Shown piece after piece: positions 1,269 to 60,952 of a DNA stretch of 64,000 nucleotides. The stretch's first letter is position 1, and every line of letters starts with the position of its first letter. Made by a program: the position numbers and the translations under genes. The stretch is taken from assembly GCA_964407105.1 (NCBI GenBank), contig CAYOUG010000002.1:11041-75040 (forward strand). The letters run 5' to 3'. The DNA comes from an uncultured Candidatus Saccharibacteria bacterium (GTDB lineage Bacteria; Patescibacteriota; Minisyncoccia; Phycocordibacterales; CALRHW01). The notes under the pieces are model-generated. The model ran no database searches and was not told the DNA's origin. It was given only the letters and a program-made list of their open reading frames with translations.

Positions 1269-1397
1269 ATGAAGCAGATCTTTAACAAGACGGCAGACGC
1301 GATCAATGAGCAGTTTCCCAAAATCTTGACCTTCGGTCTTCTGCTCACGTTCGTCTGCTTGGTGGTCTACTTTTTGTGTAATGGACCCCGTTAGCAT
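1269..1397 (+). CDS. small hydrophobic peptide of 42 aa (MKQIFNKTADAINEQFPKILTFGLLLTFVCLVVYFLCNGPR)
   Basis: AGGAG at 1256-1260 sits 8 nt before the ATG at 1269. The ORF encodes one predicted transmembrane helix. It lies between the promoter at 1166 and the hairpin at 1448-1490. It falls below the 60-aa cutoff of the ORF track. Confidence 0.35.
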
Positions 1398-5050: not shown

Positions 5051-5225
5051 ATCAACACAAAGACCTCTTGAACGAGTTAGCGGAAGAGGTTTAGAAAATG
5101 TTGAGATTTTTAGAAAAATGAAGCTGTCTGACGAGCGAAGCGAGGAGTTCTTCATTTTTCGTTAAAAAATCGATTACATTTTCAAAGCTCTGTAGCGCTT
5201 TAGTGAGAGAGGTCTTTGTGTTGAT
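5051..5225. repeat. nested inverted repeats in the gyrA 3' spacer
   Basis: The outer 18-bp inverted repeat is ATCAACACAAAGACCTCT (5051-5068) with AGAGGTCTTTGTGTTGAT (5208-5225). The inner hairpin is GAAAAATGAAG (5113-5123), a 26-nt loop CTGTCTGACGAGCGAAGCGAGGAGTT, and CTTCATTTTTC (5150-5160). Confidence 0.7.
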
Positions 5226-5229
5226 GCTA

Positions 5230-5337
5230 AAAACCAAAAACCATCTTTGGAAAACCACGCATAAATCGCTGCTGCGATTTTGCTACGCTCGGCCCGTCGG
5301 CCTGCGCGATGCTTTTCCAAAGATGGTTTTTGGTTTT
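5230..5337 (+). repeat. copy 1 of a conserved 58-nt GC-rich core (5255-5312) inside a perfect 25-bp AT-rich inverted repeat
   Basis: The arms are AAAACCAAAAACCATCTTTGGAAAA and TTTTCCAAAGATGGTTTTTGGTTTT. The core is CCACGCATAAATCGCTGCTGCGATTTTGCTACGCTCGGCCCGTCGGCCTGCGCGATGC. The core is repeated at 34218-34275 (minus) and 36819-36876. Confidence 0.9.
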
Positions 5338-7695: not shown

Positions 7696-8085
7696 ATGAA
7701 ATTTCTTTCAAATGTGATGTTGGGGCTTTTGTTTGCCTTAGCGATTTTTGTGCCCTTTGTGCACGCAGAAATTACGTCTGGTAATTTATTTCCAAATCCA
7801 CTTGGTGACAGTGTTGGTAATAGTTTATATGGTTTTGTGTATTTTGTTCTTACAAATATTGTGATGCCTATTGGTTCCGTTGTCGTAGTATTTTTCATTA
7901 TTTATGCTGGATTTTTGTTTGTTACTGCGCGTGGCAATGAAAAGAAGCTTGAAAGCGCTAAAAAAACCTTTCTTGCTGTGGTTATCGGTGCAGTTATTTT
8001 ACTCGGCTCTTGGACAATCGCGAGTGCTATAAAAGGTACACTGTGTCAGATTTCTGGTGGAAATATTCCTGATCTATGTAACTAA
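7696..8085 (+). CDS. pilin-like two-transmembrane protein, paralog 2
   Basis: A signal peptide is followed by the core (FFIIYAGFLFVTARGNEKKLESAKKTFLAVVIGAVILLGSW) and a C-terminal Cys pair (LCQISGGNIPDLCN). Confidence 0.55.
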   Translation: MKFLSNVMLGLLFALAIFVPFVHAEITSGNLFPNPLGDSVGNSLYGFVYFVLTNIVMPIGSVVVVFFIIYAGFLFVTARGNEKKLESAKKTFLAVVIGAVILLGSWTIASAIKGTLCQISGGNIPDLCN

Positions 8086-57874: not shown

Positions 57875-57980
57875 GAGCTACATTGTAGCTAAATTAAGTG
57901 TATTCTTCAAGAACAGCATTGGAAACAGTGCTTGAGAGAAAAAGATGTTTCCAATGCTATTTTTTGTTAGTATACGTCTT

Positions 57981-58727
57981 ATGTCGGTTTTGAATATATA
58001 TAAAAACCTTGGTGAAACGCCGCTGGAGGCGCTTGAGCGACTGCGTGTAGAGCAACCAGAATATAAAGATAGCAAACTCACATATGCTGGTCGGCTGGAT
58101 CCTATGGCTGAGGGTGTGCTTTTGGTGCTCACGGATGAAGACAATAATCGTCGTGATGAGTTTTTGGGTTTAGAAAAAGAATATGAGTTTGAGGTGCTTT
58201 GGGGTGTGGAGACCGATACCTATGATGTACTTGGAAAAATTGTCGCGGAAAAAATACCAGCGATTTTTAAGCCTAACGATTTTAGGAAAACTTTAGATAA
58301 ATTTGAGGGAGTTTATGATCAGCCGTATCCACCATATTCTTCTCAACCTGTGCAAGGCAAACCACTTTTTTGGTGGGCGCGCGAAGGTCGTTTAAATGAG
58401 ATTGAAATTCCGCGAAAAGAAATTGAAATTAAAAAACTCGAGCATGTGCGCGACACAAAAATTACCACGTCTGAATTGCGCGAAAAAATTCTTTACAACA
58501 TTTCGCTTGTGAAAGGGGATTTTCGACAAGAAGAAATTACCGCCGGTTGGCAGAAATTTTTTGCAAAATATCCAAGCGCAATTTTTACCATTTCTACCTT
58601 TCAAGCGACCGTTTCAAGTGGCGCATACATGCGCGGTTTCGCTCACGTTTTTGGAAAAGAACTCGGCTGTGGCGCTATTGCATTGAGGATTTTGCGCACA
58701 AAAGTAGGGAAGTATTCAAAAATTTAA
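57981..58727 (+). CDS. truB: tRNA pseudouridine55 synthase
   Basis: The catalytic Asp is in the motif AGRLDPMAEGVLLV. The likely start is MSVLNIYKN. Confidence 0.85.
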   Translation: MSVLNIYKNLGETPLEALERLRVEQPEYKDSKLTYAGRLDPMAEGVLLVLTDEDNNRRDEFLGLEKEYEFEVLWGVETDTYDVLGKIVAEKIPAIFKPNDFRKTLDKFEGVYDQPYPPYSSQPVQGKPLFWWAREGRLNEIEIPRKEIEIKKLEHVRDTKITTSELREKILYNISLVKGDFRQEEITAGWQKFFAKYPSAIFTISTFQATVSSGAYMRGFAHVFGKELGCGAIALRILRTKVGKYSKI

Positions 58728-58739
58728 TTTAATTTTGTT

Positions 58740-59159
58740 ATGTGTGTGTTTCTTGATATAGTGTTAAATGTGATCGAATATGGTATTCGTTCAACAAGGA
58801 GTTAACATGCCTTAAAAACGGCACGAGAGAATACAAAATTTTCCATGACGCCATGTGGCCTTGATCATCCATGTGGGTCGGCGGTAGCCAACCCGTCAAG
58901 TTTTGTCGTCCTGGGCATCACATTGCTTAGTGGACTAACTATGGATACAAGTCTGTTTTCTTTGTGAGCCGGTGGTAGTCAACCCATCCAGTTACAAACG
59001 TACTTTGTAGAAATGTGTACGTTTGTATAAATCTCTGTTTGTGACAGATGGAGATCGGGCAGGATTCGCACAATCTACTTACCACACCACGCTAATGTTC
59101 ACGTGATGCGGTAAATCCAAAATGGAGCATCCAAATGTTTTCACAGACATTTGGCGTCA
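58740..59159 (+). other. 470-nt GC-enriched non-coding region (candidate structured RNA or decayed gene)
   Basis: No ORF of 60 aa or more lies on either strand. Two ~30-nt direct repeats at about 75% identity (GGTCGGCGGTAGCCAACCCGTCAAGTT and GAGCCGGTGGTAGTCAACCCATCCAGTT) are roughly 95 nt apart. A 10-bp hairpin (ACAAACGTAC, 13-nt loop, GTACGTTTGT) and a mini-ORF (AAGGAG, 6 nt, ATG CCT TAA) are present. Confidence 0.35.
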
Positions 59160-59207
59160 CCACCGACACGCGCACACAAGTGCAGTCGGTGGTTTTTTTA
59201 TTTTTTT
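59160..59207 (+). terminator. rho-independent terminator (CCACCGAC, 17-nt loop, GTCGGTGG, then T8 A T7)
   Basis: A perfect 8-bp stem is followed by a long T-run. It overlaps the typA stop codon on the opposite strand. Confidence 0.65.
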
Positions 59208-60952
59208 AAATCTCTTTTTCGGAGACGAACGCTTATTGGAGTAATTTCAATATAATCATCTTCTGCCATAATTTCCATAGCGCGTTCTATGGTGAGTTTA
59301 AAAGGAGGAACAAGAAAAATTCCTTCATCAGACCCAGATGCACGCATGTTGGTAAGCTGTTTTCCTTTTGTTGGGTTTACATACATTGTGTCGCCCTTGG
59401 TGACGTTGCCTACGATCATTCCTTCATACACCTCTACAGTAGGTTCTATATATAGAACACCACGCTCTTGGAGATTCCAAAGTGAAAAGGCGAGCGCTTT
59501 TCCAGCAGTCATAGATATCATTGATCCATATGTTTGCTTTTTTATTTCACCTACATGTGGTTTAAATTCTGTAAATCGGCTTGAAATAATTCCTTCGCCC
59601 TTTGTGTCGATGATAAATTGTCCGCGATAGCCGAGAAGGCCACGTGTTGGAATTTCAAATGTCATGCGTTGATGACCTTGCTCCTGCTTCATGTTGGTGA
59701 GAATTCCTTTTCGTTCGCCGAGTTTGGCAATTACAGATCCGGCCGCTGTATCTGGGACATCCACAATCACTTCTTCAAAAGGTTCGTATGTGACGCCTTC
59801 AATTTCTTTTAAAATTACATTTGGTTGAGAGACCTGTAGCTCAAAACCTTCACGGCGCATATTTTCGAGAAGAATTGCAATGTGAAGTTCTCCGCGACCA
59901 TAAACGATATAATGTTCACCATCTTCAAAATTAATTTTTAAACCAACATTTATCTCAAGTTCTTTTTCTAGACGCTCACGAATTTGGCGACCAGTAACAT
60001 ATTTTCCTTCGCGTCCAGCGAAAGGAGAATTATTTACTAGAAAATTTAGAGAAATTGTGGGTTCGTCGATTTTAATAGCAGGAAGAGCTTCTTGTTCAAC
60101 GTTATTACAAATTGTTTCTCCGATATATATTTCTGGAAGACCAGCGATCATTACGATATCACCAGCAATAGCTTCTATAAGTTCTTTTTTTGCAATACCT
60201 TCAAATGTGAAAATTTTTGTGAGTTTACCGGTGTATGATGTGCCATCAGGACGTTTTACCACCACAGGTTCTCCAACCTTTATTTTTCCTTCATAAATAC
60301 GACACACTGCAAGACGACCAAGAAAATTATCGTAGCCCAGATTAAATGTTTGCATGCGAAGTGGTGCATCAATATCACTTGGTGCTGGAGGCACTTCTTT
60401 TAAAATGGTATCAAGAAGGGGGGTTAAATCTTTTGATTCATCTTCAAGATTAATTTTTGCAATACCGTCGCGACCAATAGCGTATACAGTTTTAAAATCC
60501 ATTTGCGCATCATGTCCACCAAGATCAAAAAACAATTCAAGCACCTCGTCTATTACTTCTTTTGGTCGAGCAGCTGGCTTGTCTATTTTATTGATAACAA
60601 CGATTGGTTTTAGTCCGAGTTCGAGAGATTTTTTAAGTACAAAACGAGTCTGTGGCATTGGACCTTCTTGGGCATCTACCACTAAAAGTACGGTATCTAT
60701 AGAACGAAGTACACGCTCCACCTCTGAACCGAAGTCGCTGTGGCCCGGAGTATCTACGATATTAATTTTTGTGCCCTTGTAAAAAACAGAGGTATTTTTT
60801 GCATAAATAGTAATACCCCGCTCTTGTTCCAGAGCATTTGAATCCATAGTAACTCCCTCTACTCCAACACCCGTTTGTTTCATAAGAGCGTCGGTTAGGG
60901 TTGTTTTGCCATGATCCACGTGGGCTATAATTGCGATATTGCGAATTTCCAT
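59198..60952 (-). CDS. typA: translational GTPase TypA/BipA
   Basis: MEIRNIAIIAHVDHGKTTLTDALM is an EF-G-like G domain. The 584-aa length fits BipA. Confidence 0.9.
   Translation of the reverse strand: MEIRNIAIIAHVDHGKTTLTDALMKQTGVGVEGVTMDSNALEQERGITIYAKNTSVFYKGTKINIVDTPGHSDFGSEVERVLRSIDTVLLVVDAQEGPMPQTRFVLKKSLELGLKPIVVINKIDKPAARPKEVIDEVLELFFDLGGHDAQMDFKTVYAIGRDGIAKINLEDESKDLTPLLDTILKEVPPAPSDIDAPLRMQTFNLGYDNFLGRLAVCRIYEGKIKVGEPVVVKRPDGTSYTGKLTKIFTFEGIAKKELIEAIAGDIVMIAGLPEIYIGETICNNVEQEALPAIKIDEPTISLNFLVNNSPFAGREGKYVTGRQIRERLEKELEINVGLKINFEDGEHYIVYGRGELHIAILLENMRREGFELQVSQPNVILKEIEGVTYEPFEEVIVDVPDTAAGSVIAKLGERKGILTNMKQEQGHQRMTFEIPTRGLLGYRGQFIIDTKGEGIISSRFTEFKPHVGEIKKQTYGSMISMTAGKALAFSLWNLQERGVLYIEPTVEVYEGMIVGNVTKGDTMYVNPTKGKQLTNMRASGSDEGIFLVPPFKLTIERAMEIMAEDDYIEITPISVRLRKRDLKK

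What the first reader, a model, noticed from the sequence alone, without database searches (positions are those of the whole stretch)
58740..59207. 470-nt non-coding GC-enriched region between truB and typA with internal direct repeats, hairpins, an SD-ATG-CCT-TAA mini-ORF and a strong terminator
No ORF of 60 aa or more lies on either strand, which is very unusual in this gene-dense genome. The region contains two imperfect direct repeats of about 30 nt, roughly 95 nt apart (GGTCGGCGGTAGCCAACCCGTCAAGTT and GAGCCGGTGGTAGTCAACCCATCCAGTT). It also has a 10-bp perfect hairpin (ACAAACGTAC...GTACGTTTGT), a doubled CCATGTGG motif, and a two-codon mini-ORF with a perfect SD (AAGGAGTTAAC ATG CCT TAA). 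It ends in a rho-independent terminator (59160-59207). It could be a stable structured RNA or the remnant of a decayed gene. I looked for RNase P, tmRNA and SRP signature motifs and did not find them.
Basis: seen in the sequence. Interest (0 to 1): 0.5.

Follow-up and report, generated by a model that had tools for sequence, protein, structure and literature searches.

The report
New structured small RNA downstream of truB
The gene-free stretch between truB and typA in this uncultivated Paceibacterota (CPR) genome most likely encodes a hairpin-rich RNA of about 430 nt that matches no catalogued RNA family. It recurs in a few close relatives with base-pair-preserving mutations, and its function is unknown.

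Summary
It matches no Rfam 15 family and is not a tmRNA or tRNA.

Homologous sequences lie at the same place, downstream of truB on the truB strand, in six fetched loci representing about five distinct relatives whose TypA is 86-89% identical. Other equally close relatives have nothing there or an unrelated small ORF.

The conserved core is a tandem duplication of one unit: an 8-bp hairpin of variable sequence followed by the hairpin GGYGG-UAGYCAAC-CCRYC. The "doubled CCATGTGG" is the two arms of the first hairpin.

Across 9 distinct unit copies, 96% of cells pair and 10 of 13 pairs carry changes on both sides (0 of 500 shuffles reach this). G·U outnumbers A·C 13 to 1, which places the RNA on the truB strand. 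Predicted promoters and terminators agree.

The mini-ORF is not conserved, and no trace of a decayed protein gene was found.

Caveats: there are few sequences, and outside the conserved blocks the region diverges about as fast as silent codon sites. The locus is a recombination hot spot, and no expression data are available. Function is unknown. My best guess is an accessory RNA whose two identical loops form a binding platform.

The parts
58735..58762 (+). Promoter-like site TTGTTA-16 nt-TATAGT with TG before the -10 box, 8 nt after the truB stop codon. The predicted transcript starts near 58770.
   Evidence: Stronger sites sit at the equivalent place in relatives: L015 TTGACA-16-TATAGT (11 of 12), L013u TTGACA-17-TAGTAT, L094 TTGACA-16-TATCCT. 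Consensus matches only; no expression data.
58796..58815 (+). AGGAG is conserved in long-form homologues; the ORF is not.
   Evidence: L013d and L087d have AGGAG...ATG CTC TAA, but L093 has ACG at the aligned start. The motif is absent from the short forms L013u, L015 and L094.
58851..58876 (+). H1: 8-bp hairpin CCAUGUGG/CCAUGUGG with loop CCUUGAUCAU, which contains the palindrome UGAUCA. First hairpin of unit A.
   Evidence: All 8 pairs show changes on both sides among copies, for example CUAUACGG/CCGUAUAG in L013u. 98% of cells pair.
58880..58897 (+). H2: signature hairpin GGCGG-UAGCCAAC-CCGUC. Second hairpin of unit A.
   Evidence: The loop UAGYCAAC is conserved. The third stem pair is C-G here and U-A in H4 and in most homologues.
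58914..58970 (+). P3: helix GGC[A]UCACA ... UGUGA GCC with a variable 40-nt tip. First hairpin of unit B, paralogous to H1.
   Evidence: The inner stem covaries: UCACA/UGUGA (window), UCACG/CGUGA (L013u), CGACG/CGUCG (L015), GGAGA/UCUUC (L093d), GAAGG/CCUUC (L013d). Model R1, built on unit A, finds unit B in the window, L013u and L015.
58971..58988 (+). H4: signature hairpin GGUGG-UAGUCAAC-CCAUC. Second hairpin of unit B, abutting P3 with no linker.
   Evidence: The closing pairs covary: GGUAG/CUACU in L013d, GGCGG/CCGCC in L015, GGCGU/ACGCC in L094. In L093d and L013d the tip is extended by about 25 nt.
58994..59026 (+). H5: 10-11 bp perfect hairpin ACAAACGUAC/GUACGUUUGU.
   Evidence: The homologous hairpin in L093d and L013d is ACGGACA/UGUCCGU, so two A-U pairs have become G-C.
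59031..59055 (+). H6: hairpin AUCUCUGUUUG/CAGAUGGAGAU.
   Evidence: L093d and L013d have AACCCCUA/UAGGGGUU at the same position.
59081..59115 (+). H7: hairpin with the conserved loop UAAUGYUU. The loop could pair with the conserved AGCAU at 59126-59130 as a pseudoknot; this is inference.
   Evidence: The stem has U-A in L093d and C-G in L013d. The loop sequence is conserved in all three long forms.
59131..59154 (+). H9: hairpin CCAAAUGU/ACAUUUGG, preceded by the invariant GAGCAUCC (59125-59132).
   Evidence: The relatives have CCGG..UGCC/GGCA..CCGG, so A-U pairs have become G-C at two or three positions.
59158..59207 (+). Intrinsic terminator: stem CACCACCGAC...GUCGGUGG followed by U7AU7. The U tract overlaps the last codons of the convergent typA gene. 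The block GGCGUCACCACCGA is invariant in all long forms.
   Evidence: This terminator module occurs only in the window, L093, L013, L014 (a second assembly with the same RNA as L013) and L087.

Best explanation
Window ~58770-59200 (+ strand) is the gene for a structured non-coding RNA of about 430 nt. It belongs to a small, previously uncatalogued family that sits directly downstream of truB in one clade of Paceibacterota (CPR).

Anatomy. The predicted promoter starts 8 nt after the truB stop codon, and there is no terminator in between. The RNA could therefore also arise from truB read-through, as a 3'-UTR-type sRNA that shares the mRNA's terminator.

The conserved 5' core is a tandem duplication of one unit. 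Each unit is an 8-bp hairpin whose sequence varies but whose pairing is kept, followed 0-4 nt later by a 5-bp hairpin presenting the loop UAGYCAAC. Unit A is H1+H2 and unit B is P3+H4.

Long forms (window, L093, L013d/L087d) add five more hairpins and a sequence-invariant terminator. Short forms (L013u, L015, L094) have other 3' hairpins.

Shown: sequence homology, conserved pairing with compensatory changes, strand (G.U asymmetry), and no match to any known family.

Inferred:
- It is transcribed.
- It acts in trans as an accessory RNA. It is present in some close relatives and absent from others.
- The two identical apical loops, possibly with the palindromic UGAUCA loop of H1, form a bivalent binding platform for a protein or RNA partner.

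The partner and the biological role are unknown. The confidence given applies to the claim that this is a conserved structured RNA gene; the binding-platform mechanism on its own deserves about 0.2.
For: - No known family. Rfam 15 at gathering and at E<=10 gives nothing credible on the window or on homologues. ARAGORN finds no tmRNA or tRNA there.
- Homologues at the same locus and strand. L093 E=3e-17; L013d, L014 (same RNA) and L087d E~3-5e-15; partial second copy L013u E~1e-5. L015 and L094 were found by the covariance model or by eye.
- Internal duplication. Model R1, built on unit A only, retrieves unit B in the window, L013u and L015, and a diverged member in L094.
- Covariation. 96.2% of cells pair, 10 of 13 pairs change on both sides, 0 of 500 shuffles reach this, and slid controls give 36-52% paired.
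- Curated helices P3, H4, H5, H6, H7 and H9 also show compensatory changes. RNAalifold supports H9, H7 and the terminator.
- Strand. 13 G.U pairs against 1 A.C in the curated helices. The two CCAUGUGG arms pair only as RNA on the + strand.
- Promoter-like sites and intrinsic terminators lie on that strand in the window and in relatives.
- For L013u and L015, the single-sequence minimum-energy fold is exactly the four-hairpin model.
- Not protein-coding.
Against: - Only about five independent sequences, some of them paralogous units. The counted alignment was fitted to the model, so the covariation statistics are indicative, not proof.
- Overall identity of the RNA between the window and relatives is 52-54%, close to the 48-52% at four-fold sites of typA. 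For L093 against L013d it is 77% against 76%. Outside the conserved blocks, constraint is therefore weak or purely structural.
- Thermodynamic z-scores of the core are unremarkable, -0.85 to -2.0. For the whole region the minus strand scores better (-6.4 against -4.0).
- The element is missing at this locus in equally close relatives: L091, L084-86, L018 and L100. The locus carries insertion scars.
- The long-form relatives lack a consensus-scan promoter at the equivalent (5') position; the only sense-strand hit in L093 lies inside the RNA.
- No transcription data. No partner or target was identified: the complement of the loop is not enriched in the window, and a duplex scan against 59 start regions found nothing compelling.
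Confidence: 0.68

Rival explanations
1. It is only a structured 3' UTR and shared terminator region of truB (and of the convergent typA). It would act in cis, for mRNA stability or insulation of convergent transcription, with no trans-acting RNA product.
For: - There is no terminator between the truB stop and the element. The only strong + strand terminator is at 59158-59207, and its U tract overlaps the typA stop.
- The element always lies downstream of truB on the same strand.
- In L013 the new truB 3' end and the short RNA appear to have arrived together.
Against: - Near-consensus promoters sit between truB and the RNA in L015, L013u and L094.
- Close relatives manage with a 110-nt spacer and a plain terminator (L091).
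- A duplicated two-hairpin unit with conserved loops is more than a terminator needs.
Confidence: 0.15
2. It is non-functional hot-spot DNA: scars of recombination and mobile-element traffic that happen to be hairpin-rich. The hairpins would be maintained, if at all, at the DNA level, for example as recombination sites.
For: - The truB-typA spacer differs in almost every relative. It holds unrelated small ORFs of 172, 148, 137+76, 211 or 92 aa, or nothing.
- L013 carries a decayed duplicate of the truB 3' end.
- The L088-90 contigs end there with integrase-like and RT-like ORF fragments.
- Overall divergence is about the same as at silent sites.
Against: - At 48-52% silent-site identity, neutral DNA should not give nhmmer E-values of 1e-15 to 1e-17 or invariant 14-24 nt blocks.
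- Pairing is kept by compensatory changes and by G.U wobbles that work on one strand only (13 G.U against 1 A.C). This argues for selection on an RNA, not on duplex DNA.
- The element is single-copy in 64 kb.
- No attC-type R'/R'' core sites were seen by inspection.
- No match in phage or plasmid collections.
Confidence: 0.12
3. It is the remnant of a decayed protein-coding gene.
For: - Relatives carry small ORFs in the same spacer.
- The window region holds ORF-lets of 30-53 aa.
Against: - tblastn with the small proteins encoded in the spacer and nearby flanks of fetched relatives finds no trace in the window; the 92-aa ORF of L100, fetched later, was not tested.
- The ORF-lets have no Pfam hit at E<=1, apart from one marginal 0.05.
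- Homologues differ by 1-, 2- and 5-nt indels.
- The conserved parts are hairpin stems with compensatory changes.
Confidence: 0.03
4. It is a highly diverged member of a known RNA class that the models miss: RNase P RNA, tmRNA, 6S, SRP, a group II intron fragment, a TIGR array or a type III antitoxin.
For: - Its length of about 430 nt is in the range of RNase P RNA and tmRNA.
- CPR RNAs are often atypical (own knowledge).
- TIGR arrays occur in CPR (PMC12045711).
Against: - No Rfam hit even at E<=10 on three diverged homologues. ARAGORN is negative.
- The architecture is a string of local hairpins, with no closing long-range helix conserved. The 58846/59152 pairing is not kept in relatives.
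- The element is absent from close relatives, so it is not housekeeping.
- TIGR units are 36 nt with 9-nt spacers next to a Nop-domain gene. Here the units are about 90 nt, there are only two, and the neighbours are truB and typA.
Confidence: 0.02

Closest known systems
3'-UTR-type bacterial sRNAs with their own promoter that share the upstream mRNA's terminator (such as DapZ and MicL in enterobacteria; own knowledge)
   Same: It lies immediately downstream of a coding gene on the same strand. A predicted promoter sits at or after the stop codon, and one intrinsic terminator serves both transcripts.
   Different: It is much longer and far more structured (nine or more hairpins). No single-stranded seed or target was identified. 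It comes from a CPR lineage; whether such RNAs depend on Hfq there was not examined. Expression is untested.
Protein-sequestering sRNAs with repeated loop motifs (CsrB/RsmZ family; own knowledge)
   Same: The same short motif is presented repeatedly in hairpin loops of one RNA, which suggests a multivalent binding platform.
   Different: The loop motif is UAGYCAAC, not GGA. There are two copies rather than many. No cognate protein is known. There is no Rfam match.
Orphan structured bacterial ncRNA motifs found by comparative genomics of intergenic regions (Weinberg et al. 2017, PMC5737381)
   Same: It was found as an unusually long, somewhat GC-richer intergenic region in an AT-rich genome. 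It is supported by covariation, and its function is unknown.
   Different: It is not among the Rfam 15 families. Its distribution so far is very narrow, one Paceibacterota clade with TypA at least 86% identical, and patchy.
TIGR arrays (tandem interspaced guide RNA arrays; Faure et al. 2025, PMC12045711)
   Same: Both occur in CPR bacteria. Both are tandem units that combine variable palindromic stems with conserved short motifs. The signature hairpin begins with UG and ends with CCA in most copies.
   Different: TIGR units are 36 nt with 9-nt spacers, repeated 5-15 times, next to a Nop-domain Tas gene. Here there are two units of about 90 nt, the variable parts are self-paired rather than free spacers, and no Tas gene is nearby.

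Membership tests
Any Rfam 15 family (including RNase P, tmRNA, SRP, 6S, group II intron, riboswitches, OLE/GOLLD/ROOL/raiA) | Covariance-model score at or above the family's gathering threshold | tested here: not met
   Window at gathering threshold: only 4 tRNAs, all elsewhere. Region at E<=10: best hit E=0.82, 16 bits against a 51-bit threshold. Homologues in L093 and L013: nothing credible.
tmRNA / tRNA-like | tRNA-like acceptor and T-arm ending in CCA; tag reading frame | tested here: not met
   ARAGORN finds none in the region or in nine related loci. The 3' end is a terminator hairpin plus a U tract.
3'-UTR-type sRNA with own promoter | Lies downstream of a CDS on the same strand and shares that mRNA's intrinsic terminator | tested here: met
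   The truB stop is at 58727. No terminator occurs before 59158-59207. The arrangement is the same in L093, L015, L013 and L094.
3'-UTR-type sRNA with own promoter | Independent promoter and a discrete stable transcript | tested here: inconclusive
   Promoter-like sites score 9 of 12 in the window and 10-11 of 12 in L013u, L015 and L094. None is flagged at the expected upstream (5') position for the long forms L093 and L013d. The transcript itself is not testable with these tools.
Conserved structured ncRNA (general criterion) | Base pairs maintained by compensatory substitutions across homologues | tested here: met
   96% of cells pair, 10 of 13 pairs change on both sides, 0 of 500 shuffles reach this, and slid controls give 36-52%. 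Caveat: 9 distinct rows, and the alignment was fitted to the model.
Type III toxin-antitoxin antitoxin RNA (ToxI-like) | Array of contiguous direct repeats of about 34-40 nt followed by a terminator and a ToxN/AbiQ-family toxin gene | tested here: not met
   There are two units about 91 nt apart. The downstream gene is the convergent typA. The 172-aa ORF after L013u has no Pfam or PADLOC hit and is separated from the RNA by a truB remnant.
TIGR array | 36-nt units (edge repeat, 9-nt spacer A, loop repeat, 9-nt spacer B) repeated 5-15 times, adjacent to a Nop-domain Tas gene (PMC12045711) | tested here: not met
   Unit size, copy number and neighbouring genes all differ.
CsrB/RsmZ-type sponge | Multiple GGA motifs in hairpin loops | tested here: not met
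   The signature loops are UAGYCAAC. No Rfam hit.
Dispersed repeat (REP/MITE) | Many copies per genome | tested here: inconclusive
   The element occupies only this locus in the 64-kb window. The rest of the genome is not available.
Pseudogene | Detectable similarity to a protein family or to proteins at the orthologous locus | tested here: not met
   A full blastx of the region against a comprehensive protein database was not run.

The most novel reading that the evidence does not exclude
The RNA is the functional core of a small accessory module that moves between strains by recombination at the truB 3' end. In L013, a second copy arrived together with a replacement truB 3' end. Its two identical UAGYCAAC loops and the palindromic UGAUCA loop would then make it either a bivalent or self-associating RNA scaffold, or the RNA partner of a still unrecognised CPR system, for example one linked to the variable small ORFs that occupy the same spot.
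Probability: 0.1. Interest if true: 0.7.

Novelty: new member of a known kind. Interest (0 to 1): 0.4.

Why it matters
CPR/Patescibacteria make up a large share of bacterial diversity. In the two literature searches run here I found no report of lineage-specific non-coding RNAs in them beyond introns and TIGR arrays. This is a concrete, covariation-supported candidate with a simple modular architecture: a duplicated two-hairpin unit. It could be synthesised and probed by SHAPE, pull-down or oligomerisation assays without cultivating the organism. Its patchy presence at a recombination hot spot suggests an accessory role rather than a housekeeping one. On present evidence it is one more orphan sRNA family of narrow distribution, so the significance is moderate.

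Tried and rejected
- Known RNA classes: Rfam at two thresholds on the window and on homologues, plus ARAGORN. Nothing found.
- TruB-based search of GTDB genomes: 10 relatives at 38-47% TruB identity. None has typA next to truB or any similarity to the element, so the scan was too distant to help.
All 63 hits were minisatellites, coding repeats or a CRISPR-like array, and none was homologous. The gap range also missed L015 by one base (51 nt).
- Viral-contig scans: one plus five hits, all in high-GC DNA that matches only the 20-mer. These are chance hits.
- blastn against phage and plasmid collections: no match.
- The long-range pairing 58846-58864 with 59141-59159 from the repeat finder is not conserved in L093 or L013d, so I rejected it.
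- A tRNA T-arm or group II domain V resemblance around GGAUUCGCAC / GGAAUCGAACC was checked by eye and with ARAGORN and Rfam. It is not real.
- Type III antitoxin, TIGR array, integron attC and T-loop mimicry for TruB were considered and rejected on unit size, motifs and neighbouring genes.
- Target search: the complement of the loop is not enriched in the window (8 matches found, 8 expected, two of them the element itself). An RNAduplex scan of 59 start regions gave nothing convincing.
- MAFFT could not align the variable linkers. The full-length and 3'-domain alignments (A1, A4, A9) therefore understate conservation, and I used hand-curated helices instead.

Full report
**What is there**

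The window comes from an AT-rich genome (GC 0.385). TruB and TypA relatives identify it as Paceibacterota (Patescibacteria/CPR).

A TruB-family gene lies at 57945-58727 on the + strand (PF01509, E=1.7e-25). A TypA/BipA gene lies at 59198-60952 on the - strand. The 470 nt between them hold no ORF longer than 53 aa. This is the longest stretch of the window without a 100-aa ORF.

- A 31-nt direct repeat, 81% identical, with 91-nt spacing.
- An 11-bp perfect hairpin.
- Two CCATGTGG copies.
- AAGGAG-N5-ATG-CCT-TAA.
- A stem followed by T7AT7, which abuts the typA stop.

GC enrichment is modest: 0.432 overall and 0.51 in the core.

**Not a known RNA**

Rfam 15 finds only four tRNAs elsewhere in the window. 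At E<=10 it finds nothing credible in the region. ARAGORN finds no tmRNA. The same holds for homologous regions in relatives.

**Homologues**

TruB-based loci from GTDB (38-47% identity) were too distant: there was no synteny and no similarity. I then used TypA homologues at 78-90% identity to fetch orthologous loci.

The truB-typA spacer turned out to be hypervariable.

Long-form homologues of the window element, next to typA on the truB strand:
- L093, E=3e-17.
- L013 and L087, E~3-5e-15. These two differ at one aligned position in 508 (99.8% identity).

Short forms, which share only the 5' core:
- L013u, a second copy in L013.
- L015.
- L094, a diverged member.

Relatives with no element at the locus:
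- L091 has a 110-nt spacer.
- L084-86, L018 and L100 carry unrelated small ORFs.
- L016 has lost synteny.

None of those small ORFs has a Pfam or PADLOC family, apart from a sub-threshold zinc-ribbon match and a marginal DUF3262 match. tblastn with those fetched by that point finds no trace in the window; the 92-aa ORF of L100 was fetched later and not tested.

**Structure**

They differ by a compensatory C-G to U-A change.

The "doubled CCATGTGG" is the two arms of hairpin H1 (58851-58876). The arms pair through two G.U wobbles, so they pair as RNA on the + strand only.

Between H2 and H4 lies helix P3 (58914-58970), GGC[A]UCACA/UGUGA-GCC. Its inner stem covaries in every homologue: UCACG/CGUGA, CGACG/CGUCG, GGAGA/UCUUC and GAAGG/CCUUC.

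I built covariance model R1 on H1+H2 only. It also retrieves P3+H4 in the window, L013u and L015. The core is therefore a tandem duplication of a two-hairpin unit. R1 also picks up the diverged L094 member at the expected place and strand.

On the resulting alignment (9 distinct rows):
- 96.2% of cells pair.
- 10 of 13 pairs have changes on both sides.
- No shuffle of 500 reaches this.
- Slid controls give 36-52% paired.

The long forms share further hairpins with compensatory changes: H5 (AA/UU to GG/CC), H6, H7 and H9 (AA/UU to GG/CC). They also share invariant single-stranded blocks: the H7 loop UAAUGYUU, GAGCAUCC and GGCGUCACCACCGA. The H7 loop could pair with AGCAU as a pseudoknot; this is my inference only.

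**Strand and transcription signals**

The curated helices hold 13 G.U pairs against one A.C. This favours the truB strand.

On that strand the window has TTGTTA-16-TGATATAGT, starting 8 nt after the truB stop. L015, L013u and L094 have 10-11 of 12 consensus promoters at the same place, and L015 and L013u also have scan-detected intrinsic terminators.

No terminator separates truB from the element. It may therefore also be made from truB read-through.

**Mini-ORF**

AGGAG is invariant in the long forms. ATG-NNN-TAA is present in the window and in L013d/L087d. L093 has ACG at the aligned start, and the short forms lack the motif. I regard the mini-ORF as incidental.

**Cautions**

- There are few independent sequences, and the counted alignment was fitted to the model.
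- Overall identity of the RNA (52-54% window against relatives; 77% L093 against L013d) is about the same as at four-fold sites of typA (48-52%; 76%). Constraint is therefore concentrated in the paired core and a few blocks.
- Single-sequence folding z-scores are unremarkable for the core, and for the whole region the minus strand scores better. For L013u and L015, however, the minimum-energy fold is exactly the four-hairpin model.
- The locus is a recombination hot spot. L013 carries a decayed duplicate of the truB 3' end between its short RNA and a 172-aa ORF, whereas the near-identical L087 does not. The L088-90 contigs end there with integrase-like and RT-like ORF fragments.
- No expression data are available, and no target or partner was found.

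**Comparison with known systems**

By position it resembles 3'-UTR-type sRNAs with their own promoter. By design (repeated identical loops) it resembles multivalent sponge or scaffold RNAs. It meets none of the defining features of CsrB-type RNAs, type III antitoxins or TIGR arrays. TIGR arrays have 36-nt units, 9-nt spacers and a Nop-domain neighbour (PMC12045711). The metagenome and viral pattern scans and the phage and plasmid searches yielded no further members.

**Verdict**

This is a real, previously uncatalogued, lineage-restricted structured RNA family. It is well supported as a conserved RNA structure. It is not supported as a pseudogene. Its function is unknown.

My best guess, at low confidence, is an accessory trans-acting RNA whose two UAGYCAAC loops act as a bivalent binding platform. 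Interest is moderate (0.4).

Noticed in passing
L013 ~7900-8030 (- strand): A decayed duplicate of the truB 3' end lies between the short-form RNA and a 172-aa ORF. It matches the genuine truB 3' ends of eight other loci. L087, whose long-form RNA is 99.8% identical, lacks this insertion, so the insertion or replacement at the truB 3' end is recent.
   Followed up: partly
L088, L089, L090 5777-6115 (- strand): Contigs from three assemblies all end about 360 nt past typA. The ORF fragment there combines an rve-integrase-like C-terminus (YNSRRPHWTLG) with a reverse-transcriptase-like C-terminus (FLGWVHF...SYSGLLSHGNS). These look like mobile-element scars at the same hot spot.
   Followed up: no
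truB-typA spacer in L013, L084-86, L018/19, L094, L100: Each relative carries a different small ORF here (172, 148, 137+76, 211 or 92 aa). Those tested (all but the 92-aa ORF of L100) have no Pfam or PADLOC family, apart from a sub-threshold zinc-ribbon match at the C-terminus of the 211-aa protein. The pattern is cassette-like turnover of unknown genes.
   Followed up: partly
window 1270-1395 (+): A 41-aa ORF (MKQIFNKTADAINEQFPKILTFGLLLTFVCLVVYFLCNGPR) with an AGGAG Shine-Dalgarno motif and a hydrophobic helix lies inside the 391-nt "ORF-free" gap 991-1381, which has GC 0.445. It is probably a small membrane protein.
   Followed up: no
window 59158-59200 / typA stop at 59198-59200: The U tract of the + strand terminator is the complement of the last lysine codons and the stop codon of typA. 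On the minus strand the hairpin has no U tail. typA transcripts may therefore read antisense into the RNA gene.
   Followed up: no
L081 ~5080-5290 (metagenome contig ERZ826396 NODE-841): A CRISPR-like array whose repeat GTTTTGGAGCAGTGACAAACTGACTGGTAGTCAACCC happens to end in the 12-mer used as the search pattern. It is unrelated to the finding.
   Followed up: no
L093 4967-5426: A second ORF-free gap of 460 nt lies between truB and the next gene in this relative. It contains a long AT-rich hairpin (5241-5296) that gave only chance miRNA-model hits.
   Followed up: no
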